Shown: positions 30,323-49,949 of the stretch, in pieces
How positions within the stretch are numbered: the first letter of the stretch is position 1
Layout: every line of letters begins with the position of its first letter
Source of the DNA: an uncultured Sulfolobales archaeon
GTDB taxonomy: Archaea; Thermoproteota; Thermoprotei_A; Sulfolobales; NBVN01
Reading direction: 5' to 3'
Length of the DNA stretch: 64,000 bases
Assembly (NCBI GenBank): GCA_937949785.1
Contig: CALEDH010000008.1
Span: 170,028 to 234,027, forward strand
Notes under the pieces: model-generated
Told to the model about the DNA's origin: nothing
The model's input: the letters and a program-made list of their open reading frames with translations, nothing else
Database searches by the model: none
Made by a program: the position numbers and the translations under genes

Positions 30323-30834
30323 TGTGGATGTCCGCATCATTGGTTGTAACCTCATTCATAATAATTGGTATGATGTTCTTCTTTCTAATATACATAGCTA
30401 ATACGGTGGTAACAGGCTTAGGTCTTATAAGTAAAGCTGTAGAACTAAGGAGGGATGCAGAGCTCTCTAAACCTATGTTAAGAGTTCAATCAGCTAAGTG
30501 CTTAAGTAATTATGTAGAGGTTAACTTAAGTAACGTCGGCTCATCATCAACGTTCATAGACCGCTCAACAACAGTAATTATTGAGTACCTAGTTAATGGA
30601 AGTTCGGAACACGTCGTTGAGGTCTTAAGGTATGGGGAGTCATGGTTTATCACCGGGTACTACATAGGCAGTAAGTTCTATCAGAATTCCAACGACTTCG
30701 TAGAGTTAAAGCCTGGTATGGTAGTGGTTATTAATATGCTGCCTTCGAAAACACCTTCCACAGATAACCCGATTTTATTAGTAATTACAACCGCTAACGG
30801 TGAGAGGGTTGAGTATATCTTCACCCCCAATTAA
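30319..30834 (+). CDS. arlF: Archaellum protein ArlF (FlaF)
   Basis: An N-terminal TM helix plus a beta-sandwich-sized domain, in the expected operon position, with a 4-nt overlap with arlG. Confidence 0.6.
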   Translation: MMWMSASLVVTSFIIIGMMFFFLIYIANTVVTGLGLISKAVELRRDAELSKPMLRVQSAKCLSNYVEVNLSNVGSSSTFIDRSTTVIIEYLVNGSSEHVVEVLRYGESWFITGYYIGSKFYQNSNDFVELKPGMVVVINMLPSKTPSTDNPILLVITTANGERVEYIFTPN

Positions 30835-31543: not shown

Positions 31544-31555
31544 TAGGCGGTTGAT

Positions 31556-33313
31556 ATGAATGCTCAAGTAGGTGTTGAAGGCCTTCAAGAATTAAATACG
31601 GCTATGAGGAAGTACGGGTATTTAGCTAGGTACGTCATAGAGGTATCTAAGACTTTAGGTATTCCTAAATATCAGCAGGACCTTACAGGCGCTTTAAAGA
31701 AAGCTGTTAATATAAACGTTATATACTCTGTTGATGAAGGGATCTTCATCCACATATTCATGCCTCCCGGAGGTACTTCATCAGGTTATAGGAAATACGT
31801 TATTATAGAGCCTCCTAAGCCGCCTAGGGAGCTCTTCACATTAGTTGAGGAGAAATTAGCTGAGGTCCTAACCGATAAGGACATAGCTGAGGACATGAAC
31901 TCTAGGAAGAACATATTAATCAAGTACGTTGGGAAGATTGTTGAGGTTAGCAATTCTAATTCGCAGATTAATTATAAGGAATTACTGCTAAGGAAGAATA
32001 AAAATAAATTAAGTAAGGTCCCCGTATTGAGGAGCGACTACGATAACTTAATATACTACTTAATTAGGGATAAGGTAGGCTTAGGTGTTCTCGAGCCGTT
32101 GCTTAAGGACCGCTACATAGAGGATGTGTACTGCAACGGTATTGGATACGTGCACGTGGTCCATAAAATCTTCGGACCTTTAGAAACCAATATATACTTC
32201 AACACTTCAGAGGATTTAGATAGGTTCGTTATAGAGTTAAGTGAGAGGATAGGTAAGCCAGTAAGTCATGCAAGACCTATAGTTGATGCTACACTACCTG
32301 ATGGGAGTAGGATAAACATAGTCTACGGCGTTGACGTCAGCTTAAGGGGTAGTAATTTCACTATAAGGAAGTTTAGTAAGGTACCTATGAGCATTCTTGA
32401 GCTAGTAAATTTAGGGACTCTTAACAGTTACGTAGCTGCCTATATCTGGATGCTCCTTCTTGAAGGGATGAGCGGATTCGTATCAGGTGAGACAGCATCA
32501 GGTAAGACCACAACTCTTAACGCTATAATACCTTTTATTAGACCCAGCGCTAAGATCGTATCAATAGAGGATACAGCTGAGATTCAAGCACCGCATGAGA
32601 ATTGGACTAGGGAGTTAACCAGAGACACAGGTAGTGTTGAGACCAGCATCACGTTGTTCGACCTACTTAAGGCCGCTTTAAGGCAGAGACCTAATTACAT
32701 AATAGTTGGTGAGATTAGAGGTGCTGAAGGTAACGTAGCTTTTCAGGCAATGCAGACAGGGCATCCAGTACTCGCTACATTCCACGCAAGTAGTGTTGAA
32801 AGGCTAATACAGAGAATTACGTCACCGCCTATAAACGTACCTAAAACTCAGTTAGATAATCTTAACTTCATCTTAATTCAGAGCGCTGTATATAAGGAGG
32901 GCATTTTAATGAGGAGGGTTATAAGCGTTAACGAAGTGATAGGTTACGATCCTAGAAGTAATTCAGTTATCTACGTACCGATATTTACATGGGACCCGGT
33001 GAGGGATGTATTCACCTTTAGGGGTAAGGGTACGAGTTACCTACTTGAGGAGAAGTTAGCGCTTGCTAGGGGTATTTCAAGGAGGAACATGTACCTAATA
33101 TATGAGGAGTTAGAGCTGAGAGCTAAGATATTAGAGGAATTAAGGGTTAAGAACATATTGAATTACTACGACATATTTAGAGTTATTGCGAGGATATACG
33201 GTCTGATCGATTCAAGGCTTAAAGGGGCTTCTAAGGAGGAGACAGCTCAAACCATGATTCAGGGGTTAGAGGAATCGCTGATTAGATTGAGGAAGGGTGA
33301 GTTAACCCGGTAG
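31556..33313 (+). CDS. arlI: Archaellum motor ATPase ArlI (FlaI), type II/IV secretion ATPase family
   Basis: Walker A 'GETASGKTT', Walker B/Asp box 'PNYIIVGEIRGAEG', and His box 'GHPVLATFHA'. Confidence 0.92.
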   Translation: MNAQVGVEGLQELNTAMRKYGYLARYVIEVSKTLGIPKYQQDLTGALKKAVNINVIYSVDEGIFIHIFMPPGGTSSGYRKYVIIEPPKPPRELFTLVEEKLAEVLTDKDIAEDMNSRKNILIKYVGKIVEVSNSNSQINYKELLLRKNKNKLSKVPVLRSDYDNLIYYLIRDKVGLGVLEPLLKDRYIEDVYCNGIGYVHVVHKIFGPLETNIYFNTSEDLDRFVIELSERIGKPVSHARPIVDATLPDGSRINIVYGVDVSLRGSNFTIRKFSKVPMSILELVNLGTLNSYVAAYIWMLLLEGMSGFVSGETASGKTTTLNAIIPFIRPSAKIVSIEDTAEIQAPHENWTRELTRDTGSVETSITLFDLLKAALRQRPNYIIVGEIRGAEGNVAFQAMQTGHPVLATFHASSVERLIQRITSPPINVPKTQLDNLNFILIQSAVYKEGILMRRVISVNEVIGYDPRSNSVIYVPIFTWDPVRDVFTFRGKGTSYLLEEKLALARGISRRNMYLIYEELELRAKILEELRVKNILNYYDIFRVIARIYGLIDSRLKGASKEETAQTMIQGLEESLIRLRKGELTR

Positions 33314-33321
33314 TGAATTAG

Positions 33322-34965
33322 ATGAGTGCTAGGTCTAGTAAGAAGTTATTCCTCGATAAATACTTCGTAATCTCATCGCTATCCACTGCTGCAGTATTAA
33401 TTTACTTTAGAGACCTCCAATTCCTACCACTGATGTTCATACCGGTTGCGGTGTGGTTGGTTAGGGTCTTACTACCGTATTTTAGACGTAGGTTGGGTAC
33501 AGATGTTATTGACTTAAACCTCCTCTACCTCCTACTGCATATGTATGCAGTATCTACTGGTAGGCCTGACCGTAGGAGGGTTTTCCAACTGAATAACGTC
33601 TTAGGTAGTTATGGGGATTACGAAGTAATGTTAAATCGAATAGCTTCCTTAGCTATTGACTGGGGTTACGGTTTTGTGAGGTCTATTAGGTTAGTAGCTA
33701 AGGATGTGAGGAATAGGGTGTTTAGGGAATTCCTACTTAGGTTTAGTGAGGTTTTAAGAACTGGTGAGGATATAGTTAGATTCTTAGATGTTGAATACGC
33801 AGCTGTTAGGAGGAATTACCAGGCCCAGTATAGTAGGGCTATGGATTTAATGAGGATAATACTAGGTATGCATACGACTTTAATGAGTTCTACGGGATTC
33901 GTACTTACGGTTATGGCCATCTTCATGGTCTTCACCGGTAGTAATATCGTAACATACTCACTAACTTTAATAGGCTCTATAACCATCATAGTGTTGTTTA
34001 CCGTAGTCACGTATTTAGTGGTGCCTAAGGAGTGGATAACACCTAATATAAAGCCAAGGCCTAAACGTATTTACCGGAAGTATAACCTATCAGTAATAGC
34101 GGCTTTGTTGATCGCATTCCCAACCAGCTACTTAATCTATAATAACTACGGTAGCCTAGAATTAGCGATAATGATCGGCGGGGGTTTAACCCTCCTTCCA
34201 GGGTTAACAGCCACTGTAATAGAAAATAACATTAAGAAGGTCGAGTCTTTCTATCCGATATTCATCCGTAGTTTCGGGTTAACGTATTCAGTACTGCCTA
34301 ACTACGTGAAGACGCTCTCATCATTGCTTATGAGCGATTTCGGCTTCCTAACTAAACACATCAAATTACTCTACGCTAAGCTGACTAACGGTATAGATGC
34401 TAGGATTTCCTGGAGGCATTTCGTAGAGGGGATATGGAGTGACCTAATTATGAGGACCACAAACATAGTAGTAGATGCTGTTGATGTTGGAGGTGATTTA
34501 AGGAATGTAGGTATTTCTCTAAACGATTTGATGATAAGGCTTAGAGACCTTAGAAGTGGTAGGGAGAGGGTTGCTAGAACGTTTGAAGCGACTACCTACA
34601 TACTTCAAATGCTTGTAACAGCTGTATCTATAAGCATAGTCAACATCCTCGAGATGTTCTCTAAATTCATGAAGTCCCTAGAAGTAGGTCTTGAAATAAC
34701 CGAATACTACGGAGTAATACCGTTCTATATAACGCCGGAGATAATATCATTTATATATAATGCTACGCTGCTCTACCTAGTTTTCTTAGTAGTTATTAAT
34801 GCTCTGGCCATAAAGCTAGCGTACGGTGGTGTCCTAGAAACTTTTTGGATTCAAATATCGCTGCTCTCAATAATGACTGCCTCAGCAGCATTTGCGATGA
34901 AGATGTTGATAAACTACGTGTTCGGTCAACTACTATTCCCGGAGTTAGTGCCAATCCCTACGTAG
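33322..34965 (+). CDS. arlJ: Archaellum platform membrane protein ArlJ (FlaJ)
   Basis: A 547-aa polytopic protein with two T2SS-F-like halves, immediately after arlI. Confidence 0.85.
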   Translation: MSARSSKKLFLDKYFVISSLSTAAVLIYFRDLQFLPLMFIPVAVWLVRVLLPYFRRRLGTDVIDLNLLYLLLHMYAVSTGRPDRRRVFQLNNVLGSYGDYEVMLNRIASLAIDWGYGFVRSIRLVAKDVRNRVFREFLLRFSEVLRTGEDIVRFLDVEYAAVRRNYQAQYSRAMDLMRIILGMHTTLMSSTGFVLTVMAIFMVFTGSNIVTYSLTLIGSITIIVLFTVVTYLVVPKEWITPNIKPRPKRIYRKYNLSVIAALLIAFPTSYLIYNNYGSLELAIMIGGGLTLLPGLTATVIENNIKKVESFYPIFIRSFGLTYSVLPNYVKTLSSLLMSDFGFLTKHIKLLYAKLTNGIDARISWRHFVEGIWSDLIMRTTNIVVDAVDVGGDLRNVGISLNDLMIRLRDLRSGRERVARTFEATTYILQMLVTAVSISIVNILEMFSKFMKSLEVGLEITEYYGVIPFYITPEIISFIYNATLLYLVFLVVINALAIKLAYGGVLETFWIQISLLSIMTASAAFAMKMLINYVFGQLLFPELVPIPT

Positions 34966-39595: not shown

Positions 39596-41065
39596 TTAAA
39601 CTTTACTAACCGCTACGTCGGCAAGAATTAAACCACTACCTATAGCATCCTCCCCCCAAATATGATAACTCCAGCCATTAATTATCGGTTCATACACTAA
39701 TGCCGTACCTGAGCTTACTTTAAATGTAGAGTTCTTAATTATCTTCTCAGCAGTAGTCTGATTTAGGTATAAACTTCCATCAATCATATCTGCTTGAAGC
39801 ATTAATGCTAGTACCCCGCTAACATGTGGTGCTGCTAAAGACGTACCGCTTAAGTAGTAGTACTGGCCTGGGACGTTACCACTTGTCCGGAATGCCTTAA
39901 GTGGTGGGTGGGCTGTCCCATAAGGTGTGTACGGTGTGACTACGTATGCCCCGGGTGCTAATACATCTAATTCCTGGTCTTCAAGAGCTCTACTACTAAA
40001 GTTAGGTATGTAGATCTGATTTACGAGTTCTTCAGGGACATCTAAGAGTCTCCACCAACCAGGTACTTCAAACTGCTTTACCCAACCTACTGCACCGACT
40101 GAGATGACATCCCTATACGCTGCTGGGTAGACCATCCCATTACTTCCCTCATTACCTGCTGCAGCAACTATGAAGACACCTATATTAATGGCATACATTA
40201 TAACCTCATAGAGGAGACCTGAATGAGGTCCACCAACACTTAAACTTATTATTACTGGGTTTACCTCCCCTACTGGTGGTAGGACATCCCCACCTGAACT
40301 TACTTCACTTTCATATAGTTTAACTATGTAGTAGATCCCGGCTATGAGGTCTGAGGTAAATCCCCATCCCTGATTACCTATTACCTTAACTGGGATTATC
40401 TTAACGCCTGGGGCTACACCATCAATACTATGCAAGCCGTAGACTTTATAGCCAAGTATTATCGATATGACTGCCATACCATGCCCGTCACTATCTGCTT
40501 CCCAAGCATTTCTGTTTAGAACCTTACCTGTTACTGGGTATGAGGTAGCCATGGCTCCTAGGAAAGCTGCGGCGCCTTCCACATATATGCTTTCCTCAGC
40601 GAAGTAATCCTTCCAATGCGGTTCGAGGCCCGTATCTAAGACCGCTACATATACTCCTGAACCGCTATATCCTTCCTCATGAACTGTTGGGACGTTGATC
40701 ATATCTAAATTCCATGTAAAGTTACTGCTGTGTTTTAGGCAGGTGCTTGGTAGTACCTCACTTAATGGTCTTACTATGCCGGCTTCATTAATAGATTTAA
40801 TATCATTTAAGGATTTAACGAGTCTGCTAACCGACTCCTTACCTATATGTATGACTAATCCTTTAATATCGTCAAATCTGTAGATGATCCTACCCCCTAA
40901 CTTAGAAATGATGTTTATGTCTTCATCTACTATGTTGCGGTTTAGAACTACTTCTAATACCGTGTATTCTCTACGAGCACTTACTACGTAGGTTAGAGGT
41001 GATAATGCTGTTGTTATAATCATCAGAATGAGGGTTACTTTAATTAGAGCTATCCCTAACCTCAA
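39596..41065 (-). CDS. Secreted subtilisin-like serine protease (peptidase S8)
   Basis: A signal/anchor N-terminus and the catalytic triad contexts 'VAVLDTGL' (Asp), 'DGHGMAV' (His) and 'SGTSLAAPHVSG' (Ser). Confidence 0.85.
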   Translation of the reverse strand: MRLGIALIKVTLILMIITTALSPLTYVVSARREYTVLEVVLNRNIVDEDINIISKLGGRIIYRFDDIKGLVIHIGKESVSRLVKSLNDIKSINEAGIVRPLSEVLPSTCLKHSSNFTWNLDMINVPTVHEEGYSGSGVYVAVLDTGLEPHWKDYFAEESIYVEGAAAFLGAMATSYPVTGKVLNRNAWEADSDGHGMAVISIILGYKVYGLHSIDGVAPGVKIIPVKVIGNQGWGFTSDLIAGIYYIVKLYESEVSSGGDVLPPVGEVNPVIISLSVGGPHSGLLYEVIMYAINIGVFIVAAAGNEGSNGMVYPAAYRDVISVGAVGWVKQFEVPGWWRLLDVPEELVNQIYIPNFSSRALEDQELDVLAPGAYVVTPYTPYGTAHPPLKAFRTSGNVPGQYYYLSGTSLAAPHVSGVLALMLQADMIDGSLYLNQTTAEKIIKNSTFKVSSGTALVYEPIINGWSYHIWGEDAIGSGLILADVAVSKV

Positions 41066-41140: not shown

Positions 41141-41431
41141 ATGAGTGTTAGGAGTTATTGTGCTGATAATGTAGTGTATATCGGTAGGAAGTTCTTTATG
41201 AGGTATGTCATCGCTATCTTATTTAAATTTAACCTTCTTAACTGTGGTGAGGTGGTTATCAGAGCTCGTGGGAATAACATATCTAAGGCTGTACTGGTTG
41301 TTGAGTCCTTAAGAGAGTTAATTAAGGATATCCACTACATATCAATTGTTCTGGGGTCTACTAACCTTGAGTCAGGTGGTTTTAGGAGGAGGTTATCAAC
41401 CGTTAAGATAGTTATTTCGAAGGTTAGCTGA
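41141..41431 (+). CDS. albA: Alba-family DNA/RNA-binding protein (divergent, Alba2-like)
   Basis: 'NVVYIGRKFFMRYVIAILFKFN...VVIRARGNNISKAVLVVESLRE...STVKIVISK' follows the Alba/Sso10b pattern. Confidence 0.75.
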   Translation: MSVRSYCADNVVYIGRKFFMRYVIAILFKFNLLNCGEVVIRARGNNISKAVLVVESLRELIKDIHYISIVLGSTNLESGGFRRRLSTVKIVISKVS

Positions 41432-44128
41432 ACTCATAAGCTCTCTTAGATTACTAGTTAACTTGGTGAGTAGTTCTTCCTCGCTGGGTAGGCCTAACGC
41501 TATGAGCCATGCATCAATCTGCTTCTCAACAGGTATTGCCATTATGTCGTTCTCCTCTAACACCTTAATCTCATCATGCGACCTAATGTAATTCCACTTA
41601 GGCATTAAGAACTTCCTTATCTTAACCTTCTTAGTCCTAATCGCAGCAAGTATCTTACCTGAGCCACGCCAGTCTAAACCACCTACAGGCCCTACATTAC
41701 CTTTAATATCACATTTACCAGTCATCACTATATCAGGACTTACTGGGATCTTAGTTAGTTCAGATATTGTTGCAATGCTTAACGCTAGACCTAAGCTCGG
41801 CCCGCTCACACCAGTTCCGGGAACCCCCTCCATAGGGCTTATGACTTGGTATCTAAAGTCAAAGTTCCTTATGTCGAAGCCTCCTTTCAGCATTACATAA
41901 TGCTTTATGTAGTCAACTACGTTTGCTGCACTCTCAACAACGCTTAAATCCTCAACAGATGTTCCAGGGCCTATTATAATCGATTTAGCGACCCCGGTAA
42001 TGTTTACCTTCCCAGCGCCGAAGGGGTTAACACCACACTCAACTATTAATGGGATCCCCCTCCTACCATGAACGTCTGTTCCTAAGCCGATGGCAACTCC
42101 TGAGCGGCACTCATCTGAGATTAGACTTTCCTGAACATCTATTAACTCCTTATCTATGTCTTGCTCAAGCGATTCAGCAGCTTTCTCGAAGTGGTATAGT
42201 CTTAACTTATAATCCTCAATACGTATTTTTAGAACCTCATTAATGTCTGATATTTTTAGAACCTCCTTAACCCTAGTTAACTCATCTTCGTAGAACCTAA
42301 CTAACTCATCATACCTCATAGTGTTTAACGCGTCTTTAATATCTTTTATAGCTGTTATTTCCTGAGCTCTCAACCTATTCGCATCTCTAATGACCTCAGC
42401 TATTACTCTAGGCGACACGGTTCTAAACCTCTTTAAAATGCTTAAAACCTTCTCAGGCGTCACTTCGGGGTGTAGGTGTTGGACGTACTGCCTGAGATGT
42501 ACCTTAATAATATCTAACCGTTCAGCATCGTTTCTAGGTAGCGGTATCTCAATCACATATGGTTCAAACCTATTAATGACTGCATCGTCAATAGCTTCAA
42601 TCCTATTAGTCGCAGCAATTATGAGGACCCCCTCCAGTGGTTGGAGGCCGTCTAACTCAGTAAGTATTTGAGCTGTTAACCTATCGCCTACTGGGTCCCC
42701 CCTCCTCTTAGTAGCTATTACATCGAATTCGTCGAAGAACACTATGCTGGGTGAGTGCTTCCTAGCCAGTGAGAAGAGGTCCTTAATATTCTTCTCAGGC
42801 TCCCCAACCCACTTAGCGTTAATTAATAGCTGAGATGCCGGTACGTAGAAGAAGGTAGCGTTTGCCTCCTTAGCAATTGCTTTAGTTAGATACGTCTTAC
42901 CGCATCCAGGTTCGCCGTAGAGTAAAACACCTTTAGGTGGGACCCAACCGAGTTTGCCGGAGAGCTCAGGTCTTAGACTAAGCATTACTAACTTAAATAA
43001 CTTATCCTTAATGTTGAATAAACCGCCTATATCTGAGTAGTTAACCGCCGGTTTAATCTGCAGTATAGTTCCTAAGACCTCCACGCTCTTCTCCTGCTCT
43101 ACATAACCTCTCAACTCCCTTGAAATAAGTTTGAAGTCATCTAAACCCACATTACTTTTAATTATGTCCTCAACCTTACCTATTCCGAAGAACCTACTTA
43201 ATAGCTTACCTCTAAGCGGTTCGACTTTCTTTAAGTAGACCTTAGTGCATGCATCTATTATGTCGAAGGGCGTTAGCTGTGTCTGCCTATAAGCACTTAC
43301 GGATTTCTCAAGCACCTTCATGACTTCCTCCGCCTTCAGATGGGTCCAACCAAACTTCTTCAGCTGTGAGTCTAATACAGCTAGTAACATCTCCCAAGAT
43401 ATGTTTTGGTCTAAGTCTATTACATATGCCCTTCTCCTAATATCCTCCCTAATAGTTTCGTACTTATTAGTAGCTGCGATTATTACTACCCTCCTATCGC
43501 TATCTACTATCTTGTTAATATGCTCTATGAATAGGTCCTGTACCTTAACATCCTCCCTCTCAGCACCGTACAGAGGCTTCTCAACCTTCATACCTATGGA
43601 GTGAAACTCATCTAAGAAGATTACCGTAGGGGTTTCTTCAGCCTTCCTGAAGATCGCTGTTAAGTTCTTCAACGACTGACCGTAGAGTGGGTGGAAGATC
43701 TCATCACACTGGATAATCATTGGCTGTACGTTCACGTTCTTCTTCAAGCCGTAGAGAACTGCTTCCCTCAAACAAACCTCAGCAAGGAAGGACTTACCAG
43801 TACCTGTATTACCTTTAAGTAGGAAGAACTTCGGCGGCCGCATAGCCTTAAGCAGGCTAATGATAGCATCATCCCTAATGACGTGGTAGGCTATTGCCGA
43901 CATAATCATTTCGAATTCCCTATCCCTACCAACTATATCTTCCTTCTTCTTAGGGAATTCCCTATCAACCTCCCGTAACTTCTTCTTAATCTTAGCTGGG
44001 GATAACCTAGCGTTTCTCCACTTCCTAAAATCCTTATTTACTAGGGATAACGGTAGGTAGAGGACCTTCCTAAGCATGGAGTTCCTCAGCCACCAGTAAC
44101 CCCTCTCCTCACTCTTCATCGATGACAT
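41396..44128 (-). CDS. Tandem AAA+ ATPase (two modules) fused to a C-terminal Lon (S16) protease domain
   Basis: D1 has Walker A 'GNTGTGKS' and Walker B 'VIFLDEFH'. D2 has the classical-clade 'GEPGCGKT', 'IVFFDEFD' and 'IIAATNRIEAIDDAVINRF'. The C-terminal Lon fold has the Ser context 'SGPSLGLALSIA', 'VMTGKCDIKGNVGPVGGL' and the Lys context 'GKILAA'. Confidence 0.8.
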   Translation of the reverse strand: MSSMKSEERGYWWLRNSMLRKVLYLPLSLVNKDFRKWRNARLSPAKIKKKLREVDREFPKKKEDIVGRDREFEMIMSAIAYHVIRDDAIISLLKAMRPPKFFLLKGNTGTGKSFLAEVCLREAVLYGLKKNVNVQPMIIQCDEIFHPLYGQSLKNLTAIFRKAEETPTVIFLDEFHSIGMKVEKPLYGAEREDVKVQDLFIEHINKIVDSDRRVVIIAATNKYETIREDIRRRAYVIDLDQNISWEMLLAVLDSQLKKFGWTHLKAEEVMKVLEKSVSAYRQTQLTPFDIIDACTKVYLKKVEPLRGKLLSRFFGIGKVEDIIKSNVGLDDFKLISRELRGYVEQEKSVEVLGTILQIKPAVNYSDIGGLFNIKDKLFKLVMLSLRPELSGKLGWVPPKGVLLYGEPGCGKTYLTKAIAKEANATFFYVPASQLLINAKWVGEPEKNIKDLFSLARKHSPSIVFFDEFDVIATKRRGDPVGDRLTAQILTELDGLQPLEGVLIIAATNRIEAIDDAVINRFEPYVIEIPLPRNDAERLDIIKVHLRQYVQHLHPEVTPEKVLSILKRFRTVSPRVIAEVIRDANRLRAQEITAIKDIKDALNTMRYDELVRFYEDELTRVKEVLKISDINEVLKIRIEDYKLRLYHFEKAAESLEQDIDKELIDVQESLISDECRSGVAIGLGTDVHGRRGIPLIVECGVNPFGAGKVNITGVAKSIIIGPGTSVEDLSVVESAANVVDYIKHYVMLKGGFDIRNFDFRYQVISPMEGVPGTGVSGPSLGLALSIATISELTKIPVSPDIVMTGKCDIKGNVGPVGGLDWRGSGKILAAIRTKKVKIRKFLMPKWNYIRSHDEIKVLEENDIMAIPVEKQIDAWLIALGLPSEEELLTKLTSNLRELMSSANLRNNYLNG

Positions 44129-44918
44129 CGTACCACCCCCTCCACTTACATAAGTAGTAGGTCACGGCGTTTATGACTAAGATTAGGAAAGGCGTTAATA
44201 ACCACGACACCTCAAAGTTGAAGGTATAGTACACTAAACTACTATACATTGCTAGGCCGAACGTAACTATGGCAGCCCCTAAGAAGGCTATTAAAGAACC
44301 GTATGTCAGATACCTAACTACTAACGCTATTGATTCCCCAATACCCCACCTATCCTTCTTAACCTGTGAATAATCCCTAACATCGAGTACTGCGGTAGCT
44401 GTAAACATAATCAACGAAGCTATTATTATAGCTATATTCCAAAGAGGTGCTTTTAAGTAGGGCGGAATCTGAATCCTTTGAGAGCCGTAAACCCCTGATA
44501 AGTTATTCACCAACCTAAACATGAGCTGTAGGCTCACATTACCAGGGCTTTTAAGTATATCTACTAAGACGTTGTTTGAGCTCACCCTAGATACGTTAAT
44601 TACGTACGGACTCACAGAGTAGAGAACTACGATGAAGGAGGTATCGGTTAGGTTAACTACATACTTAGTTAACTTCATATAGACCCTACCCCTATACTGC
44701 TCACTGCTTGAACCGCTAAACACATCAACTGAGAACGCGTCTGACAGACCTGATGTTAGGACATGTATGTAGTCATTCCCATAATACTCGATGAGAACTC
44801 CGTCGTTCAGCCCCGTAAGTACGACATCTAATTGAACTGTCATGACGTTAGCTAGATTAATCAATGTAAGTACGTATAATGTTAGACCCAAACACTTTAT
44901 TAGTACTGACGCTAACAT
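44109..44918 (-). CDS. Membrane protein (signal anchor, ~130-aa extracytoplasmic beta-rich domain, 4 C-terminal TM helices, acidic tail)
   Basis: The call rests on the hydrophobicity pattern. Its stop overlaps the start of the AAA-AAA-Lon gene by 20 nt on the same strand. Confidence 0.4.
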   Translation of the reverse strand: MLASVLIKCLGLTLYVLTLINLANVMTVQLDVVLTGLNDGVLIEYYGNDYIHVLTSGLSDAFSVDVFSGSSSEQYRGRVYMKLTKYVVNLTDTSFIVVLYSVSPYVINVSRVSSNNVLVDILKSPGNVSLQLMFRLVNNLSGVYGSQRIQIPPYLKAPLWNIAIIIASLIMFTATAVLDVRDYSQVKKDRWGIGESIALVVRYLTYGSLIAFLGAAIVTFGLAMYSSLVYYTFNFEVSWLLTPFLILVINAVTYYLCKWRGWYDVIDEE

Positions 44919-45155
44919 TGAAGTAGCTCTACCAATAATACTTAAGAATTAAAGATTAATTAAGCTATTACATCATTACAAAAAATTAAATAGTAGGAAG
45001 ACGGCTATAAGGATTAATTATCTGATAATGGTTAAGTTTTAGTAGGGTGCTCTACACTTGCCTTCAGGTAGGATGACTTCCGTCCTAACCTAGCATAACG
45101 GGGGTTACTGGTGGTTGAAGAACTCCATGCTTAGCGTTCAAGTTTTGTAAGCACT

Positions 45156-46610
45156 TCAAATAGGGATTACACCTATTAGGAGTTCTAGTAGTATGTGGGG
45201 TATTAACCAAGTAATTACTAACATCACAATTATAATTATTAGGCTGAAACGCATAGATAGTGGTAATTCAATAGATACGATGTCCTCCGGCTTTAAAGAT
45301 CCGAAGACCACGTTCTTAATGACCCTAATCCCATAGGCGATCGTGAACATCATTGATATCAGCGCAGCTATGGATAATACGTAGAACTCTGTAGGCATTT
45401 CCGGAGCTGTTTTAAGCACTGTAAGAATTATGAGTAACTTCGATATAAATCCAGCGAAGGGAGGTAATCCAGCTAGGCTGAGGAACCCGACGATGAAGCC
45501 CAACCCACATAACCTATATTTATGTAGGATCCCACTAACTAATCTGATGTTCCTTATATTTAGTGAATATATGAGTATTCCTGAAGATAGGAATAGTATT
45601 GCCTTAGCGTAGGCATGTGCTAGGTAGTGATATGAGAATGCCATAACATTAAATACTGGGTCCTGCATTGAAAGTGTTAAAGCTAAATAACCCATATGGC
45701 TTATACTTGAATAAGCTAAGATCCTCTTAATATCTACCTCTAATAAAGCTCCTAACCCTCCGTAAATTATTGATGCTAACCCTAAGACTAGAATTATTAC
45801 GGATAGCTCATAATAGTTAACTACGGGGCCGATAAACCTTAAAACTCCGTAACCGCCTATCCCTATAATCAGAGGGCTGAGCACCGCGCTGAACGGAGTT
45901 GGCGCTTCAGCATGTGCGGGCGGTAGCCAGAAATGCATTCCGAAGAGCCCCATCTTTATCCCAAACCCTATTAGGAGTATGTAGTATATCCAAGGAGGAA
46001 GTACTGCGGTATCTAAGACGTTGAATTGAAAAGTACCTGCGTAAACGTAGATAGATGAGAGGCCTACGATGATGAATAGAGAACCTATTAGAGACCATGC
46101 TAGGTAAGTAAATGACACGCTTACACGGTTTCCATAACCGTAGAAATATATCAACGCCCAAGAAGTTAGTACGACTAACTCGTAGAATACTATGAAGGTG
46201 ACGACGTTATAGGAAACCACCACACCTATAATACCTGAGGTATTTAACAGCATTAGACCGTAGAATAGGTTGAGCAAGGTTTTACCTAACTCCTCAACTC
46301 TATGCTTCATATACTCATACGAGTAAAGGTATATTGAAGGCAGTAAGGTCAGCACTGTTATTAAGACCAATACGTTAAGTCCGTCAATACCTAAGGAGAA
46401 GGAATACTCTAGGTGCCCACCAATAGCTACCTCAATATAGTTTTCAACGATAGGTAACCTCTTAAATAAGTAGGTTGAGATTAGGTAGGCTAACGTAGTG
46501 ACTGCTGAGGCAGTACTTGCTACGTACGCTAACCTATCGTTACGGATGTTAAATACAGCTACTGCAGTCACTACAGGTATCACTACTAGTTCTACTACAA
46601 TCGTAATCAC
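45156..46610 (-). CDS. NuoM/NuoN/MrpD-like antiporter-type membrane subunit
   Basis: PF00361-type motifs 'HFWLPPAHAEAPTPFSAVLSP', 'ILAYSSISHMGYL' and 'HAYAKAILFLSSG'. It has a 4-nt overlap with the upstream NuoL-like gene. Confidence 0.8.
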   Translation of the reverse strand: MITIVVELVVIPVVTAVAVFNIRNDRLAYVASTASAVTTLAYLISTYLFKRLPIVENYIEVAIGGHLEYSFSLGIDGLNVLVLITVLTLLPSIYLYSYEYMKHRVEELGKTLLNLFYGLMLLNTSGIIGVVVSYNVVTFIVFYELVVLTSWALIYFYGYGNRVSVSFTYLAWSLIGSLFIIVGLSSIYVYAGTFQFNVLDTAVLPPWIYYILLIGFGIKMGLFGMHFWLPPAHAEAPTPFSAVLSPLIIGIGGYGVLRFIGPVVNYYELSVIILVLGLASIIYGGLGALLEVDIKRILAYSSISHMGYLALTLSMQDPVFNVMAFSYHYLAHAYAKAILFLSSGILIYSLNIRNIRLVSGILHKYRLCGLGFIVGFLSLAGLPPFAGFISKLLIILTVLKTAPEMPTEFYVLSIAALISMMFTIAYGIRVIKNVVFGSLKPEDIVSIELPLSMRFSLIIIIVMLVITWLIPHILLELLIGVIPI

Positions 46611-48787
46611 CCAATAGTAATAGCTAGGATGTATATTAAAAGAATAGCTAATGTAATAACATAAGTGGTTAGGAAGGTATCCATGTCAGCAGAGCCCACA
46701 GCGTTTAATAACAATGTTAAGTGTTTTAAGAAGAACCTCCCTATACTTCCAAACACCAAGCTGAATAGGTAATTCACACCGGTGAAAACTGCTTCACCAA
46801 CCCTCACACCAACTACCTTAATACTTATTTGATGTCTCTTAAAGAAGGCCTTAGCAGATAGAAAAGCCCTTACTAAGTCAAGTAGGTAATTCACACCGGT
46901 AGAAATTACTTCGATAAACCCCTTACCAGCTCCTCTAACGATTACCTGTTGTCTTCTAAGAGAATTCTTAATGATTAGAAAAGCTTTCTTCGAACGTGGC
47001 GCCTGCAACAGTAAGAACTGCCTCACCGACTTAAGCTTAACTACCATTTCAGTAGATACTTCCCATAACCTCCGCGTACTTACCATCTCTCTAAACCTAG
47101 GTCTAGATGTTATTTCAGCTAGGATGGGTGAGATATGTAGGAGACGTTGTTCGTATACGAGTACCGCCAGTAGTACGCCGGAGAATATAGCTGTAATCGT
47201 TGAGCCGATGAGGATAGAGTTATCATGAACCATATGAATTTCCTCAATCACAGTTACCAACCTTATTAAATATCCCTTAACGTCAAAACCTATAACCCCA
47301 ATTATTAATGAAGTTAAAGCGAGTAGGAGGGGTGGGTAGTACATTAACCTACTTACAGCATGATGCTCGTGGAGGACGTTACTGGACGTGCTGAACGTTA
47401 TGATAAGCATTCTGGTCATATAGAAGGCCGTTAGGAAGTTTCCTATAATTATAGCTAGAAATAACGTGTAATACCCATTACCAACTATTACTTCAATTAA
47501 GAACTCCTTACTCCAAAAACCTATTAATGGGGGAACACCTATTAGGCTTAGAGAGGATATTAAGGCAATTACGAATAAATGCCTAAAATCTTTGAGGTAT
47601 ACCCTCATCTCATCTATATATAGCGTACCGGTTACATGTATTAAAACTCCGGCGACTAGGAAGAGCGCAGACTTAGATAGTGCATGACTAATTAGGTGGT
47701 ACATAGTTGCAGTTCCAGCTATTAAAGGCATTTCCATAAAGCCGGCAACACCTAAGATAACGAACATAAGACCTATCTGACTGATCGTTGAGTATGCTAA
47801 TATCCTCTTCAACTCAACACCTCGCCCAGCATTAACAGCACCACCGATCATTGATATAACCCCGGAGAGTATGAGTATGTAGAATATTATCAACACGTTA
47901 CTGTATGTTTGAGTTATTGCTGTTAGATGTGGAAGTAGGCGGAGTATTATGTAGACACCGGCCTTAACCATAGTTGCTGAGTGTAGAAGTGCTGATACAG
48001 GTGTTGGGCCAGCCATAGCGTATGGTAACCATACGTGTAGGGGGAATTGAGCTGATTTAGACATAGGGCCTATGAGGAATAGGAGTAGTGAGAGAATTAC
48101 TAACCACTCAGGTATGCCCCTACCGGCCAACATAATTGCTAGGTCTTCATAGTAAGGCGATCCTACTAATGTTACAAGCATTAAGATACCTAACAACATT
48201 AGAGCATCTGCACAGCCTACGATTAAGAACGTGATGAAGGAAGAATAGCTTGGCCTGTAAAGCGGTGCCTTATTAGGAGGCCCCCCAATCCAGTACTCCC
48301 TCTCATCACCGTAGTAGTAACCAATTAATAAATAACTACATAGGCTCATACCCTCCCAACCTACGAACATTAGGATGAAGTTATCTGAGTTAATGACAAC
48401 TAACATACTTGCCATGAAGACTAACATTAAAATCCAATACCTTCTAGTATCGCTGTATTTTCCATCCATCCTCATATAGCTAATAGAATATGTGAGAATT
48501 AGAGCTGTTAACCCGCATACTAGAGAACTTACCAACCCACTTAGGGGGTCTAATGTGAAGGAAATGTCTATAGGCTTAATATACGGTAATCTTAACCATT
48601 CACTAACTAATTCAACGTTCACAGGGCCTACGTGAATCACCTCAAACAGTAGGATTAGGGAAGCAGTTAGAGATGTGAGGGAAGTTATAAGTGAGATAAC
48701 CCCTAGTAGTAGGCTATCCCTCATAGTAAGTAGTAGTAGTGCTATTAGTACAGGTAAGACAAACTCGACGGCCAGTAATTCCCTCAT
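46607..48787 (-). CDS. NuoL/MrpA-like antiporter-type membrane subunit with a long C-terminal amphipathic arm and terminal TM
   Basis: Motifs 'HVWLPYAMAGPTPVSALLHSATMVKAG', 'ILAYSTISQIGLM' and 'HALSKSALFLVAG'. The C-terminal ~200 aa is basic and amphipathic, ends in a TM helix, and resembles the NuoL lateral-helix architecture. Confidence 0.8.
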   Translation of the reverse strand: MRELLAVEFVLPVLIALLLLTMRDSLLLGVISLITSLTSLTASLILLFEVIHVGPVNVELVSEWLRLPYIKPIDISFTLDPLSGLVSSLVCGLTALILTYSISYMRMDGKYSDTRRYWILMLVFMASMLVVINSDNFILMFVGWEGMSLCSYLLIGYYYGDEREYWIGGPPNKAPLYRPSYSSFITFLIVGCADALMLLGILMLVTLVGSPYYEDLAIMLAGRGIPEWLVILSLLLFLIGPMSKSAQFPLHVWLPYAMAGPTPVSALLHSATMVKAGVYIILRLLPHLTAITQTYSNVLIIFYILILSGVISMIGGAVNAGRGVELKRILAYSTISQIGLMFVILGVAGFMEMPLIAGTATMYHLISHALSKSALFLVAGVLIHVTGTLYIDEMRVYLKDFRHLFVIALISSLSLIGVPPLIGFWSKEFLIEVIVGNGYYTLFLAIIIGNFLTAFYMTRMLIITFSTSSNVLHEHHAVSRLMYYPPLLLALTSLIIGVIGFDVKGYLIRLVTVIEEIHMVHDNSILIGSTITAIFSGVLLAVLVYEQRLLHISPILAEITSRPRFREMVSTRRLWEVSTEMVVKLKSVRQFLLLQAPRSKKAFLIIKNSLRRQQVIVRGAGKGFIEVISTGVNYLLDLVRAFLSAKAFFKRHQISIKVVGVRVGEAVFTGVNYLFSLVFGSIGRFFLKHLTLLLNAVGSADMDTFLTTYVITLAILLIYILAITIG
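46766..46999 (-). repeat. Intragenic tandem duplication, 2 x 117 bp (39 codons), inside the C-terminal arm of the NuoL-like gene
   Basis: The units are 46766-46882 and 46883-46999. They share an identical 18-nt core 'taggtaattcacaccggt' (at 46766 and 46883) and 'tagaaaagc' (at 46859 and 46976), exactly 117 nt apart. The peptides 'AFLIIKNSLRRQQVIVRGAGKGFIEVISTGVNYLLDLV' and 'AFLSAKAFFKRHQISIKVVGVRVGEAVFTGVNYLFSLV' align. Confidence 0.8.
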
Positions 48788-48896: not shown

Positions 48897-49949
48897 TTAA
48901 ATACTGGTTAGGTAATTCCCTATAGACCTTCCAGCTATTAAGCCGTCTCTTAAAGCTAAGCCGATCTTAGAAGGACCTAAGACTACGTCACCAGCTGCGT
49001 AAACCCCTTTTCGAGTGGTTTCCCTTAACTCATTTACTAATATCCTCCCATCCCTACCTAGCCTTATCCCTAATTCGTTATCAAGAACCGGAGGTGTAGG
49101 TGTCTCACCGATGCTGTTGATGATTATGTCAACCTCTAATTCGAAGTCACTACCATCTATAGGTATTGGCTTAGGTCTACCGCTTTCATCAGGTTCTCCC
49201 AACTTACACCTAATAAGCCCTACAGACCTTACTAAGCCACTACTAGTATTTATCTTAGTAGGTATGACTAAATCCACCAATAACACCCCCATATTAACTA
49301 GCTTCATTAACTCCTTCTCACCTGCCGGTGCCTCCTTTACAGTCCTCCTGTAGAGCATGTAGACCTTATAGGCCCCCATTCTCAACGCCTCCATAGCAGC
49401 ATCTACTGCTGAGAGTCCAGCCCCTATTACTGCAACCTTCTTACCGCTTAACTCTGGAATCGCAGACCTATCTAAGTAGCCTAACTCATACGCCTTAACC
49501 CTGAAGAGGAAGTCTAACGCCTTAAATACATTACTACTCCCCTCTCCATGAATACCTAAAGACTTAGACCTCCAGGCCCCCGTAGATATTAACACAGCGT
49601 GATAACTACTTACTAACTCGCTGAACTCTATCTTAGACCTCGCGAATTCATCCCCCTCATCGACGTCTCCCTTAGAACTCACCACCTTAGTAGAACCTAT
49701 GAAGTTAACGTTATATGACGTAAGCACTTCTTTAACCCCCTCCCTAATCCTCCCAGCATCGATTCTAACGTTAGGTATGGCGAATAACGGCAACCCGCCT
49801 GGCTCAGGAAGTTTATCGTACATATCTACCTCAGCACCGCTACACCCTAAATAGCTAGCTGCTACCAAGCCCGCAGGGCCGGAACCAACTACCGCCACCT
49901 TCCTACCGCCTAACTTCCTCTCCGGCATGCATGCTAGGTTAAACCTCAT
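48897..49949 (-). CDS. FAD/NAD(P)-dependent oxidoreductase, glutamate synthase small-subunit (GltD)-like, lacking the N-terminal Fe-S domain
   Basis: Two dinucleotide folds, 'VAVVGSGPAGLVAASYL' and 'KVAVIGAGLSAVDAA', and the C-terminal 'VYAAGDVV'. Confidence 0.7.
   Translation of the reverse strand: MRFNLACMPERKLGGRKVAVVGSGPAGLVAASYLGCSGAEVDMYDKLPEPGGLPLFAIPNVRIDAGRIREGVKEVLTSYNVNFIGSTKVVSSKGDVDEGDEFARSKIEFSELVSSYHAVLISTGAWRSKSLGIHGEGSSNVFKALDFLFRVKAYELGYLDRSAIPELSGKKVAVIGAGLSAVDAAMEALRMGAYKVYMLYRRTVKEAPAGEKELMKLVNMGVLLVDLVIPTKINTSSGLVRSVGLIRCKLGEPDESGRPKPIPIDGSDFELEVDIIINSIGETPTPPVLDNELGIRLGRDGRILVNELRETTRKGVYAAGDVVLGPSKIGLALRDGLIAGRSIGNYLTSI

What the first reader, a model, noticed from the sequence alone, without database searches (positions are those of the whole stretch)
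41396..44918. Two-gene module: tandem AAA+ ATPase fused to a Lon protease domain, translationally coupled to a membrane protein
The 910-aa protein combines two complete AAA+ modules with a C-terminal Lon S16 fold. D1 has 'GNTGTGKS' and 'FLDEFH'. D2 is CDC48/FtsH-like with 'GEPGCGKT', 'FFDEFD' and 'ATNRIEAIDDAVINRF'. The Lon Ser context ('GPSLG') and Lys context ('GKILAA') both align with the E. coli Lon S679/K722 dyad, allowing for a 4-residue insertion. Canonical archaeal LonB has one AAA+ module with TM helices inserted into it, whereas this protein has two modules and no TM. Instead, a 269-aa protein is encoded immediately upstream, and its stop overlaps the ATPase start by 20 nt. That protein has a signal anchor, an extracytoplasmic beta-rich domain, 4 TM helices and the acidic tail 'WYDVIDEE'. 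This suggests a split, membrane-docked unfoldase-protease, possibly a quality-control or regulated-proteolysis machine. It could conceivably release the membrane-tethered wHTH regulators encoded 4-15 kb away. Lon-like domains also occur in defence systems (BrxL, CalpL), so a defence role cannot be excluded. I do not know of a characterised protein with this architecture.
Basis: partly seen in the sequence, partly recalled or inferred. Interest (0 to 1): 0.6.

Follow-up and report, generated by a model that had tools for sequence, protein, structure and literature searches.

The report
Membrane-anchored Cdc48-like/Lon hybrid protease
Two overlapping archaeal genes encode a small membrane protein and a large enzyme that joins two Cdc48-type ATP motors to a Lon protease; the pair is always found together (and is fused in Asgard archaea), so it is most likely an undescribed membrane-bound ATP-dependent protease.

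Summary
ORF 41396-44128 (-) encodes a 910-aa protein with two classical AAA modules and a C-terminal Lon (S16) protease domain. ORF 44109-44918 (-) encodes a 269-aa membrane protein whose stop overlaps the ATPase start by 20 nt.

Walker A and B, pore-loop and Ser778/Lys825 residues are conserved in all 73 aligned family members, apart from one K411R change and one C-terminally incomplete sequence. The pairing is conserved too. In 77 of 77 related loci, from Sulfolobales, Nezhaarchaeales, Methanomethylicia, two Bathyarchaeia clades, Hecatellales and Asgard MAGs, a membrane module lies directly upstream (70 loci) or is fused to the ATPase N-terminus (7 loci, six Asgard-labelled). No third gene is shared across clades, and no defence context appears.

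The best reading is a membrane-anchored, self-compartmentalised unfoldase-protease built on the FtsH or LonB design logic, but from Cdc48/VAT-like tandem rings plus a Lon chamber and a separate anchor subunit.

It fails the tested definitions of LonA, LonB, Cdc48, FtsH and IetA. All database names are generic ("AAA family ATPase"), every genome hit is a MAG, and nine literature searches found no description.

Substrates are unknown, and a membrane-protein quality-control role is inferred. The link to wHTH regulators is unsupported.

The parts
44109..44918 (-). Gene for the 269-aa membrane subunit (anchor)
   Evidence: ORF. It is conserved upstream of, or fused to, the ATPase-Lon gene in 77 of 77 loci. 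No Pfam, NCBIfam or PADLOC family matches it.
44853..44912 (-). N-terminal signal anchor or signal peptide (aa 3-22)
   Evidence: Hydrophobic segment; AF2 helix 3-22; coordinates checked.
44505..44846 (-). Predicted extracytoplasmic beta-sandwich domain (aa 25-138)
   Evidence: Nine strands in the AF2 model, pLDDT about 75-87. Foldseek gives only weak matches to Ig-like or cohesin-like folds, none with E below 0.001. The domain is absent from the 124-127 aa Bathyarchaeia partners and from the Asgard fusions.
44139..44459 (-). Conserved three-TM module (aa 154-260) with a basic cytoplasmic loop KKDRW..ESIALVVRYL
   Evidence: Hydrophobicity; AF2 helices 157-186, 193-230 and 237-260. It aligns across phyla and with the N-terminus of the Odinarchaeum fusion.
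44112..44135 (-). Cytoplasmic acidic tail WYDVIDEE
   Evidence: A [YF][DE]x[ILV]D[EAG][EDQY]-type tail occurs in all loci of the 54-88% identity clade. It is kept as YEIIDEQ or YDLADEE inside the fused Asgard proteins.
44109..44128 (-). 20-nt overlap of the two ORFs (dual-coding junction)
   Evidence: The IDEE codons ATCGATGAAGA contain a second in-frame ATG of the ATPase (Met4, 44117-44119) in the +1 frame. The same frame relation holds in Nezhaarchaeales, Methanomethylicia and Bathyarchaeia.
44136..44143 (-). Shine-Dalgarno-like GGAGGGGG, 7 nt upstream of the ATPase ATG, inside the W-R-G codons of the membrane gene
   Evidence: Sequence read. A role in translational coupling is inferred.
41396..44128 (-). 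Gene for the 910-aa AAA-AAA-Lon protein
   Evidence: AF2 mean pLDDT is 82.3.
43943..44128 (-). Basic helical N-terminal region (aa 1-62; invariant W12 W13), the proposed docking surface for the membrane subunit
   Evidence: 19 K/R against 6 D/E; short helices at pLDDT about 80; W12 and W13 invariant. In Asgard fusions it follows the tail directly (...IDEQVYDFTPWW). The docking role is inferred.
43109..43846 (-). AAA module D1 (aa about 95-340): Walker A K112, Walker B D173/E174, pore loop Y149-G150, R231-R233
   Evidence: All of these residues are invariant in the family alignments. The best solved match is VAT/Cdc48 D1 (E 3.5e-20).
42413..43066 (-). AAA module D2 (aa about 355-572): Walker A K411, Walker B D466/E467, pore loop W440-V441-G442, sensor-1 N508, Arg finger R520
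   Evidence: PF00004 at 401-523. D466, E467, G442, N508 and R520 are invariant; K411 is K in 72 of 73 and W440 in 68 of 73. The best solved matches are VAT and p97 D2 (E 8e-78).
42128..42412 (-). Family-specific helical linker between D2 and the protease (aa 573-667)
   Evidence: AF2 helices 573-667; invariant R585, E590, R619, H646 and E667; no family match.
41489..42127 (-). Lon (S16) proteolytic domain (aa 668-880)
   Evidence: Lon_C scores 44.3 bits against a 21.1 cut-off. A family profile hits only Lon P domains in the PDB (41 sequences, best AfLonB at E 5e-15).
41795..41797 (-). Codon of catalytic Ser778 (GPS*LG; Pro before Ser, an A-type centre)
   Evidence: Aligned to EcLon S679 and AfLonB S509. 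Present in 72 of 73 sequences, the other being gapped there. Codon checked.
41654..41656 (-). Codon of catalytic Lys825 (GK*ILAA)
   Evidence: Aligned to EcLon K722. Present in 72 of 73 sequences, the other being gapped there. The Ser-to-Lys offset is 47 instead of the canonical 43.
44919..45155 (-). AT-rich 237-nt intergenic region upstream of the membrane gene, the likely promoter of the two-gene unit
   Evidence: Sequence read (TTTAATT-type stretches within about 70 nt of the ATG). This is inferred; no archaeal promoter scan is available.

Best explanation
The two genes encode the subunits of a membrane-anchored, ATP-dependent, self-compartmentalised protease.

The 910-aa protein is predicted to form a ring, by analogy with Cdc48/VAT and Lon, in which two stacked classical AAA tiers (D1 and D2) sit above a Lon Ser-Lys proteolytic chamber. 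Both tiers keep intact Walker A and B, pore-loop and Arg-finger residues. The 269-aa protein supplies the membrane anchor. It has three TM helices whose cytoplasmic acidic tail and basic loop bind the basic, Trp-rich N-terminal helical region of the ATPase, which would place the D1 pore against the membrane.

Substrates would be pulled through D1 and D2 and cleaved in the Lon chamber. They are most likely membrane or membrane-proximal proteins, as for FtsH and LonB. The overlapping junction, with a Shine-Dalgarno-like element and the start codon embedded in the tail codons, would couple translation and so favour 1:1 assembly. The extracytoplasmic beta-sandwich domain is a lineage-variable accessory, not part of the core.

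Shown here:
- the domain composition;
- conservation of the catalytic residues;
- absence of a TM segment in the ATPase;
- obligate co-occurrence of the two genes, and their fusion in Asgard MAGs.

Inferred:
- hexamer formation;
- the docking interface;
- the direction of threading;
- translational coupling;
- substrate class.
For: Domain calls: AAA twice plus Lon_C.

D1 and D2 are closest to VAT/Cdc48 D1 and D2.

The Ser-Lys dyad aligns to solved Lon P domains.

In 73 aligned family sequences the checked catalytic residues are conserved. K112, D173/E174, Y149-G150, D466/E467, G442 and R520 are invariant. K411 is R in one sequence. S778 and K825 are present in all 72 sequences aligned there.

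77 of 77 loci carry the membrane module: 70 as a gene ending 26 nt inside to a few nt before the ATPase start, and 7 as an N-terminal fusion of 126-128 aa with three TM helices.

The membrane modules align across phyla, including the fused Odinarchaeum N-terminus.

No other neighbour is shared between clades.

The ATPase N-terminus carries a net charge of +13, opposite an acidic tail.

Neighbouring genes are housekeeping genes.

Background: LonB is the known membrane AAA+ protease of archaea and FtsH is absent there (PMC4343526).
Against: There is no experimental data for any member, and every genome that holds it is a MAG.

The membrane subunit has no recognisable fold relative.

The Ser-Lys spacing is 4-6 residues longer than in all described Lon subfamilies (PMC9569914). 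Activity is therefore plausible but unproven.

The substrate class rests purely on analogy.

The conserved tail could partly reflect nucleotide-level constraints of the overlap (Shine-Dalgarno element and start codon), although it persists in the fused Asgard proteins, where no overlap exists.
Confidence: 0.65

Rival explanations
1. A regulated-proteolysis (signalling) machine. The extracytoplasmic beta-sandwich domain senses an external cue, and the protease then degrades or releases a specific regulator.
For: Sulfolobales, Nezhaarchaeales, Methanomethylicia and the 36% Bathyarchaeia clade all have a surface-exposed domain between the anchor and the three-TM module. Lon and FtsH also carry out regulated proteolysis (general knowledge).
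Against: The outer domain is missing from the 124-127 aa Bathyarchaeia partners and from all Asgard fusions, so it is not part of the conserved core. No regulator gene, or any other gene, is conserved next to the module across clades. The domain has no specific structural relative. None of the 20 neighbouring window ORFs scanned is a regulator.
Confidence: 0.15
2. A soluble cytoplasmic protease. The upstream membrane protein would be a co-regulated substrate, adaptor or unrelated operon partner, not an anchor.
For: The 910-aa protein has no TM segment. No interaction was modelled.
Against: Seven loci (six labelled Asgard) encode the three-TM module and the ATPase-Lon protein as one polypeptide, with the tail motif placed exactly at the junction. 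Co-occurrence is 77 of 77, with a tight or overlapping junction in every case.
Confidence: 0.1
3. An anti-phage defence module, of the IetAS, BrxL or CalpL kind, that uses an AAA ATPase and a protease.
For: PADLOC IetA models hit D2 (E 4.8e-43). An S8 subtilase gene lies 330 nt downstream on the same strand in this window. Lon-like domains do occur in defence systems (general knowledge).
Against: The NCBIfam IteA model scores 133.6 against a cut-off of 510, and Cdc48 and PAN models score higher, so the hit reflects generic AAA similarity. The subtilase is absent from the closest relatives' loci and from all other clades. Neighbouring genes are housekeeping genes. Sequence identity falls in step with taxonomic distance, which suggests mainly vertical inheritance.
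Confidence: 0.05
4. The Lon-like domain is non-catalytic, as in RadA/Sms or LonC-type degenerate modules, and the protein is only an unfoldase or segregase.
For: The Ser-to-Lys offset is 47-49 instead of the strictly conserved 43 (PMC9569914).
Against: Ser778, Lys825, the preceding Gly-Pro and the MTG Thr are invariant or nearly so across clades down to 36% identity. This pattern is typical of selection on an active site.
Confidence: 0.05

Closest known systems
Archaeal LonB (MEROPS S16.005; e.g. A. fulgidus AF0364, T. onnurineus TON_0529)
   Same: Membrane-bound ATP-dependent protease of archaea with a C-terminal Lon Ser-Lys P domain. The AfLonB P domain is the best solved match to this family's P domain (E 5e-15).
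   Different: LonB has a single AAA+ module, not a tandem of classical AAA modules. Its TM anchor is inserted inside that module, whereas here it is a separate or N-terminally fused subunit. LonB has Asp before the catalytic Ser and 42 residues between Ser and Lys (PMC9569914). Here Pro precedes the Ser and 46-48 residues lie between. The TIGR00764 model scores 62 against a cut-off of 517.
Cdc48 / VAT / p97
   Same: Tandem classical AAA modules D1 and D2. VAT and p97 are the best sequence and fold matches over about 620 residues. The D2 pore loop is aromatic-hydrophobic-Gly.
   Different: There are no CDC48_N or CDC48_2 N-domains, and the extreme C-terminus (LNG) has no HbYX motif. The protein carries its own protease and is membrane-tethered. 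TIGR01243 scores 215 against a cut-off of 803.
FtsH (bacteria and organelles)
   Same: The same design logic: TM helices flank an extracytoplasmic domain, followed by a classical AAA motor and a fused protease chamber on the cytoplasmic side. FtsH is absent from archaea (PMC4343526), so this family could fill a similar niche.
   Different: FtsH is one polypeptide with one AAA module and an M41 zinc metalloprotease. Here there are two AAA modules, a serine-lysine Lon protease and, usually, a separate anchor subunit. TIGR01241 scores 148 against a cut-off of 600.
LonA and LonBA
   Same: A-type catalytic centre, with Gly-Pro-Ser as in LonA and LonBA (PMC9569914).
   Different: There is no LonA N-terminal domain or HI(CC) domain. 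The ATPase part is not of the Lon type. TIGR00763 scores 57.6 against a cut-off of 608.
MBA (membrane-bound AAA) proteins of Sulfolobus (Serek-Heuberger et al. 2009, listed as ref. 40 in PMC3493965)
   Same: Archaeal classical-AAA proteins attached to the membrane.
   Different: They were not compared by sequence here.

Membership tests
Lon protease family (MEROPS S16), P domain | Lon_C fold homology above the curated threshold | tested here: met
   PF05362 scores 44.3 bits against a cut-off of 21.1. A family profile hits only Lon P domains in the PDB.
Lon protease family (MEROPS S16), P domain | Catalytic Ser-Lys dyad at the aligned positions | tested here: met
   S778 and K825 align to EcLon S679 and K722 and to AfLonB S509. 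Both are present in all 72 sequences aligned there.
Lon protease family (MEROPS S16), P domain | Exactly 42 residues between the catalytic Ser and Lys (PMC9569914) | tested here: not met
   46 residues lie between in 51 sequences and 48 in 5 (offsets 47 and 49).
LonA | Large N-terminal substrate-binding region plus a single Lon-type AAA+ module; the equivalog model | tested here: not met
   No LON_substr_bdg hit. TIGR00763 scores 57.6 against 608, and PRK10787 scores 38 against 891.
LonA | Pro immediately before the catalytic Ser (A-type centre) | tested here: met
   GPS*LG; P777 is present in 71 of 73 sequences.
LonB (archaeal) | Single AAA+ module with an inserted membrane-anchoring TM domain | tested here: not met
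   Two AAA modules and no hydrophobic segment anywhere in the 910 aa.
LonB (archaeal) | Asp before the catalytic Ser (B-type centre); the equivalog model | tested here: not met
   Pro, not Asp. TIGR00764 scores 62.3 against 516.6.
Cdc48/VAT/p97 | Tandem classical AAA modules D1 and D2 | tested here: met
Cdc48/VAT/p97 | N-terminal double-psi barrel plus beta-clam domains (PF02359, PF02933); the subfamily model | tested here: not met
   Neither domain is found, whereas true Cdc48 hits carry both. TIGR01243 scores 215 against 803.
FtsH | M41 zinc-metalloprotease domain after a single AAA module | tested here: not met
   No Peptidase_M41 hit. TIGR01241 scores 148.5 against 600.
IetA / IteA anti-phage ATPase | Equivalog score and a conserved IetS protease partner | tested here: not met
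   NF042959 scores 133.6 against 510. The downstream S8 subtilase is not conserved in related loci.
MBA membrane-bound AAA (Sulfolobus) | Sequence membership in the MBA cluster | not tested
It is known only from the reference list of PMC3493965.
Hexameric self-compartmentalised AAA+ protease (functional class) | Ring assembly, ATP-dependent unfolding and degradation | not testable with these tools
   Only a monomer model was possible. Biochemistry or cryo-EM is required.

The most novel reading that the evidence does not exclude
Many uncultivated archaea possess a third kind of ATP-dependent protease, beside the 20S proteasome and LonB. It is a two-subunit machine in Thermoproteota and a single chain in Asgard. 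A membrane anchor holds a Cdc48-like double AAA ring directly over a Lon chamber, and the machine extracts proteins from the membrane and degrades them in one complex. That would make it a self-contained prokaryotic counterpart of Cdc48-driven membrane-protein dislocation (ERAD-like) and of FtsH.
Probability: 0.4. Interest if true: 0.75.

Novelty: new variant of a known kind. Interest (0 to 1): 0.66.

Why it matters
[quoted passage not shown] This family would add a third, and its architecture is absent from the Lon subfamilies described to date (A, B, C and BA; PMC9569914).

Three features set it apart:
- the Lon chamber is driven by classical-clade, Cdc48-like tandem rings rather than a Lon-type AAA+ module;
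- it has an A-type catalytic centre but a lengthened Ser-Lys spacing;
- the membrane anchor is a separate, probably translationally coupled subunit that is fused in Asgard MAGs.

The family therefore gives a natural split-versus-fused pair for studying how AAA+ proteases are tethered to membranes. It links Cdc48-type motors to membrane-protein degradation in the lineages nearest to eukaryotes. It is also highly conserved, at 54-88% identity across classes. It has stayed unnoticed probably because no cultured archaeon was found to carry it.

Tried and rejected
1. Defence reading. PADLOC IetA and TRIP13 hits turned out to be generic AAA similarity. The curated IteA cut-off is missed by a wide margin, and no protease or defence neighbour is conserved.

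2. Direct sequence search for the membrane partner. Both the single-sequence and the profile search found only 10-11 close relatives. The partner was recognised in other phyla only through synteny and hand alignment.

3. Programmed +1 frameshifting to make a fused product. In the 54-88% clade the two frames always have the same relation, and the Asgard fusion differs from the split junction by about 2 nt of spacing. However, the Shine-Dalgarno-like element lies about 25 nt from the stop, so it is not prfB-like, and a start codon is present. Ordinary translational coupling explains the data. I keep this idea at about 5%.

5. Source of the window. The exact membrane protein (P0121) could not be located on a contig, so I could not check for a canonical lonB elsewhere in the same genome. 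None lies in the 64-kb window among the large ORFs scanned.

6. Literature. Nine full-text searches and four papers read found no description of a tandem-AAA/Lon architecture. One search was swamped by "Lond." abbreviations but showed no occurrence of names such as Cdc48-Lon. The MBA paper could not be read.

Full report
**1. Observation**

One encodes 910 aa (41396-44128) and the other 269 aa (44109-44918). They overlap by 20 nt.

Pfam finds two AAA (PF00004) stretches in the 910-aa protein, with a whole-protein E-value of 2.4e-56. It also finds a Lon_C domain at residues 694-864, scoring 44.3 bits against a gathering score of 21.1.

The 269-aa protein matches no Pfam, NCBIfam or PADLOC family. 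It has the following parts:
- an N-terminal hydrophobic anchor (aa 3-22);
- a nine-strand beta domain (aa 25-138);
- three long hydrophobic helices (157-186, 193-230 and 237-260);
- the tail WYDVIDEE.

So the count is a signal anchor plus three TM helices, not four further helices. Three is also the only number that leaves the tail in the cytoplasm if the beta domain is outside.

**2. The protease domain**

I compared the C-terminal 242 residues with all PDB sequences using phmmer. This aligned GPS(778)LG with the catalytic Ser of E. coli Lon (S679, an Ala mutant in 1rr9) and of A. fulgidus LonB (S509). It aligned GK(825)ILAA with E. coli K722, with a 4-residue insertion (DWRG) before the Lys.

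A profile built from 12 diverse family members hit 41 distinct PDB sequences. All were Lon P domains, and the best was AfLonB at E 5e-15. The LonA matches cover nearly the whole P domain.

According to PMC9569914, all described Lon subfamilies have exactly 42 residues between Ser and Lys. LonA has Pro before the Ser and LonB has Asp. Here the centre is A-type (Pro), but 46 residues lie between Ser and Lys in 51 sequences and 48 in 5 sequences of the divergent clade. The insertion is therefore a family signature (consensus GGLGWRGxGK).

**3. The motor**

D2 is closest to the D2 of VAT, p97 and Cdc48 (E about 1e-77). D1 on its own is closest to VAT D1 (E 3.5e-20). The AlphaFold2 model (mean pLDDT 82.3) matches p97 and CDC48 chains over about 620 columns in Foldseek.

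In 73 aligned full-length family members the following residues are invariant:
- Walker A K112;
- Walker B D173/E174 and D466/E467;
- the D1 pore loop Y149-G150 and G442 of the D2 pore loop;
- R231-R233 and R520.

K411 is Lys in 72 of 73, W440 is Trp in 68 of 73 (otherwise Tyr or Phe), and V441 is Val in 69 of 73. Both rings therefore look catalytically competent.

The Cdc48 N-domains are absent, and no curated model reaches its cut-off:

| Model | Score (bits) | Cut-off (bits) |
|---|---|---|
| CDC48 (TIGR01243) | 215 | 803 |
| PAN (TIGR01242) | 209 | 500 |
| FtsH (TIGR01241) | 148 | 600 |
| LonB (TIGR00764) | 62 | 517 |
| LonA (TIGR00763) | 58 | 608 |
| IteA (NF042959) | 134 | 510 |

The 910-aa protein has no hydrophobic segment; its maximum 19-residue Kyte-Doolittle mean is 1.26. 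Its first 62 residues are strongly basic, with 19 K/R against 6 D/E.

**4. The family**

The big protein database returns about 80 full-length or partial relatives, with the following identity to the window protein:

| Lineage (as labelled by the source) | Identity |
|---|---|
| Sulfolobales / Desulfurococcaceae MAGs | 83-88% |
| Nezhaarchaeota | about 65% |
| Methanomethylicia | 60-65% |
| Hecatellales | 60% |
| Bathyarchaeia | 54-58% |
| Odin-, Hod- and Promethearchaeota (about 990-1015 aa) | 55-58% |
| A second, soil Bathyarchaeia clade | 35-38% |

Every source name is generic: "AAA family ATPase", "SpoVK/Ycf46/Vps4 family", or "hypothetical".

The scan of one genome per GTDB species found the family in 73 loci, all from MAGs and none from a cultured organism.

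An exhaustive HMMER search used the C-terminal 341 residues against 1.84 billion cluster representatives. It found 32 clusters at E up to 1e-10. Most full-length hits have the same two-Walker-A plus GPSxG layout. Those that carry a name are labelled Marsarchaeota, "archaeon" or, doubtfully, Nealsonbacteria, and again only as "AAA family ATPase".

**5. The partner**

By sequence the membrane protein has only 10-11 detectable relatives. Synteny shows more.

- In Nezhaarchaeales and Methanomethylicaceae, a 267-273 aa gene overlaps the ATPase start by 26 nt.
- In Bathyarchaeia the overlapping gene encodes only about 125 aa, which is just the three-TM module.
- In Odinarchaeum yellowstonii the ATPase-Lon protein is 1012 aa. 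Its extra 126 N-terminal residues are the three-TM module, ending ...KHIYEIIDEQVYDFTPWW. This runs straight into the invariant WW of the ATPase N-terminus.

The modules align with one another, sharing the basic loop K..RW...S(I/L)A and the tail Y-[DE]-x-I-D-E.

I scripted the survey over all fetched loci. Of 77 loci, 70 have a same-strand upstream membrane gene. In the 54-88% clade it overlaps the ATPase ORF start, by 17-31 nt where ORF starts were determined. In the 36% clade it ranges from an 8-nt overlap to a 5-nt gap in most loci examined, and that clade's tail is FDLKPMMED. The other 7 loci have the fusion: three Odin, one Hod and one Prometh locus, plus one contig binned as "Methylarchaceae" that looks like Hod or Prometh. 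That is 77 of 77.

All-against-all clustering of every neighbouring ORF showed that no other gene family is shared between clades. The neighbours are ordinary metabolic and transport genes.

**6. The junction**

In the 54-88% clade the ATPase frame is always +1 relative to the membrane frame. In this window the W-R-G codons read TGGAGGGGG. This is a Shine-Dalgarno-like GGAGGGGG at 44136-44143, 7 nt upstream of the ATPase ATG. The I-D-E-E codons ATCGATGAAGA contain a further ATG in the ATPase frame.

I read this as translational coupling, which is an inference. Part of the conservation of the tail could come from this dual coding. However, the Y-[DE]-x-[IA]-D-E motif persists in the fused Asgard proteins, which have no overlap, so it is also selected at the protein level.

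The split and fused junctions differ by about 2 nt of spacing. A single frameshifting indel could therefore have interconverted them. Which state is ancestral is open.

**7. Mechanism proposed**

Two proteins that are always adjacent and are fused in one lineage are expected to act in one complex. I propose the following, all by inference:
- The membrane subunit tethers a ring of the AAA-AAA-Lon protein to the cytoplasmic face of the membrane.
- Tethering works through its acidic tail and basic loop, which bind the basic, Trp-rich N-terminal helices of the ATPase.
- D1 faces the membrane. Substrates are threaded through D1 and D2 into the Lon chamber.

This is the design logic of FtsH, which is TM - outer domain - TM - AAA - protease, and of LonB. 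Archaea lack FtsH, and LonB has been regarded as its functional stand-in (PMC4343526).

Membrane-protein quality control is therefore the most likely role. It rests on analogy only.

**8. Rivals**

- **Signalling protease using the outer domain as a sensor.** This is possible. But the domain is dispensable in two lineages and no regulator is co-conserved.
- **Soluble enzyme with an unrelated membrane neighbour.** The fusions contradict this.
- **Defence role.** It is unsupported, because the similarity is generic AAA similarity, the S8 subtilase downstream in this window is not conserved, and the context is housekeeping.
- **Inactive Lon-like domain.** It is unlikely, given a conserved dyad across clades down to 36% identity. 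The longer Ser-Lys spacing does leave some doubt.

**9. Comparison and novelty**

The protein works like a Lon or FtsH-type AAA+ protease. It is a member of the Lon family only at the level of the P domain. It fails the tested definitions of LonA, LonB, Cdc48, FtsH and IetA (see the membership table).

The current Lon classification has subfamilies A, B, C and BA (PMC9569914). All of them have one Lon-type AAA+ module.

A 2012 census of archaeal AAA proteins listed Vps4, MBA, Mm0854, AMA, PAN and CDC48 groups, drawn from 81 genomes of cultured species (PMC3493965). None of these is described in the passages I read as a tandem AAA with a Lon domain. I could not read the MBA paper itself.

I found no description of this architecture in nine full-text searches. 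I rate it a new variant of a known kind: a new Lon-type AAA+ protease architecture with a separate anchor subunit. Absence from the open-access literature I could search is not proof that it has never been noted.

**10. Limits**

- There is no multimer modelling, no experimental data and no complete-genome census.
- The source genome of the window was not identified, so I could not check whether it also encodes LonB.
- TM predictions are from hydropathy and AlphaFold helices, not from a dedicated predictor.

Noticed in passing
window 41141-41431 (+): A 96-aa Alba-family ORF (PF01918, E 5.8e-10) is convergent with the ATPase-Lon gene and overlaps its last 36 nt. A 96-aa ORF in the same position and orientation recurs in 6 related Sulfolobales loci (for example L007 6698-6988).
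   Followed up: partly
window 39596-41065 (-): A 489-aa S8 subtilase with an N-terminal hydrophobic anchor lies 330 nt downstream on the same strand. It is not conserved next to the module in the closest relatives or in other clades, so it is probably unrelated to it.
   Followed up: partly
window 45156-48787 (-): Two Mrp/Nuo-type antiporter-like subunits (484 and 726 aa; Proton_antipo_M/N) lie directly upstream, followed by a Pyr_redox_2 oxidoreductase at 48897-49949. This gene order is shared with the 88%-identical Sulfolobales MAG loci L001 and L002 but with no other clade.
   Followed up: partly
L052, L055-L057, L059, L060, L063, L071, L074, L076 (soil Bathyarchaeia clade), about 78 nt upstream of the tblastn match start: In these loci the membrane gene and the ATPase-Lon gene are in the same reading frame. 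Where checked (L055, L059), only a stop codon and one further codon separate them (...KPIMED* x M...). Stop-codon readthrough would give a fused protein like the Asgard one. This was not tested.
   Followed up: no
L041, L048, L053, L067 (record titles): Contigs binned as Methylomirabilota, Dormiibacterota, 'bacterium' and Acidiferrales carry modules indistinguishable from the Bathyarchaeia types, with the same partner gene and tail. They are probably mis-binned archaeal contigs. L069, binned as 'Methylarchaceae', carries a Hod- or Prometh-type fusion.
   Followed up: partly
L005 9371-13597: In one Bathyarchaeia contig, an S2P (Peptidase_M50), a TatA and a rhomboid gene lie within 5 kb downstream of the module, forming a local cluster of membrane-protein processing genes. 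This is not seen in other clades.
   Followed up: no
window 29041-34965 (+): A run of same-strand genes includes a weak ArlX-like ORF, a T2SSE/ArlI-type secretion ATPase (31556-33313, E 3.2e-37) and a 547-aa ORF with no Pfam hit. This is probably an archaellum or type IV pilus operon.
   Followed up: no
P0039 (994 aa) and P0145, P0146, P0161 (about 1007-1036 aa): Some family members have N-terminal extensions without TM segments. These are charged, helical-looking regions in place of the WW region, which suggests further architectural variants of the family whose partners are unknown.
   Followed up: no
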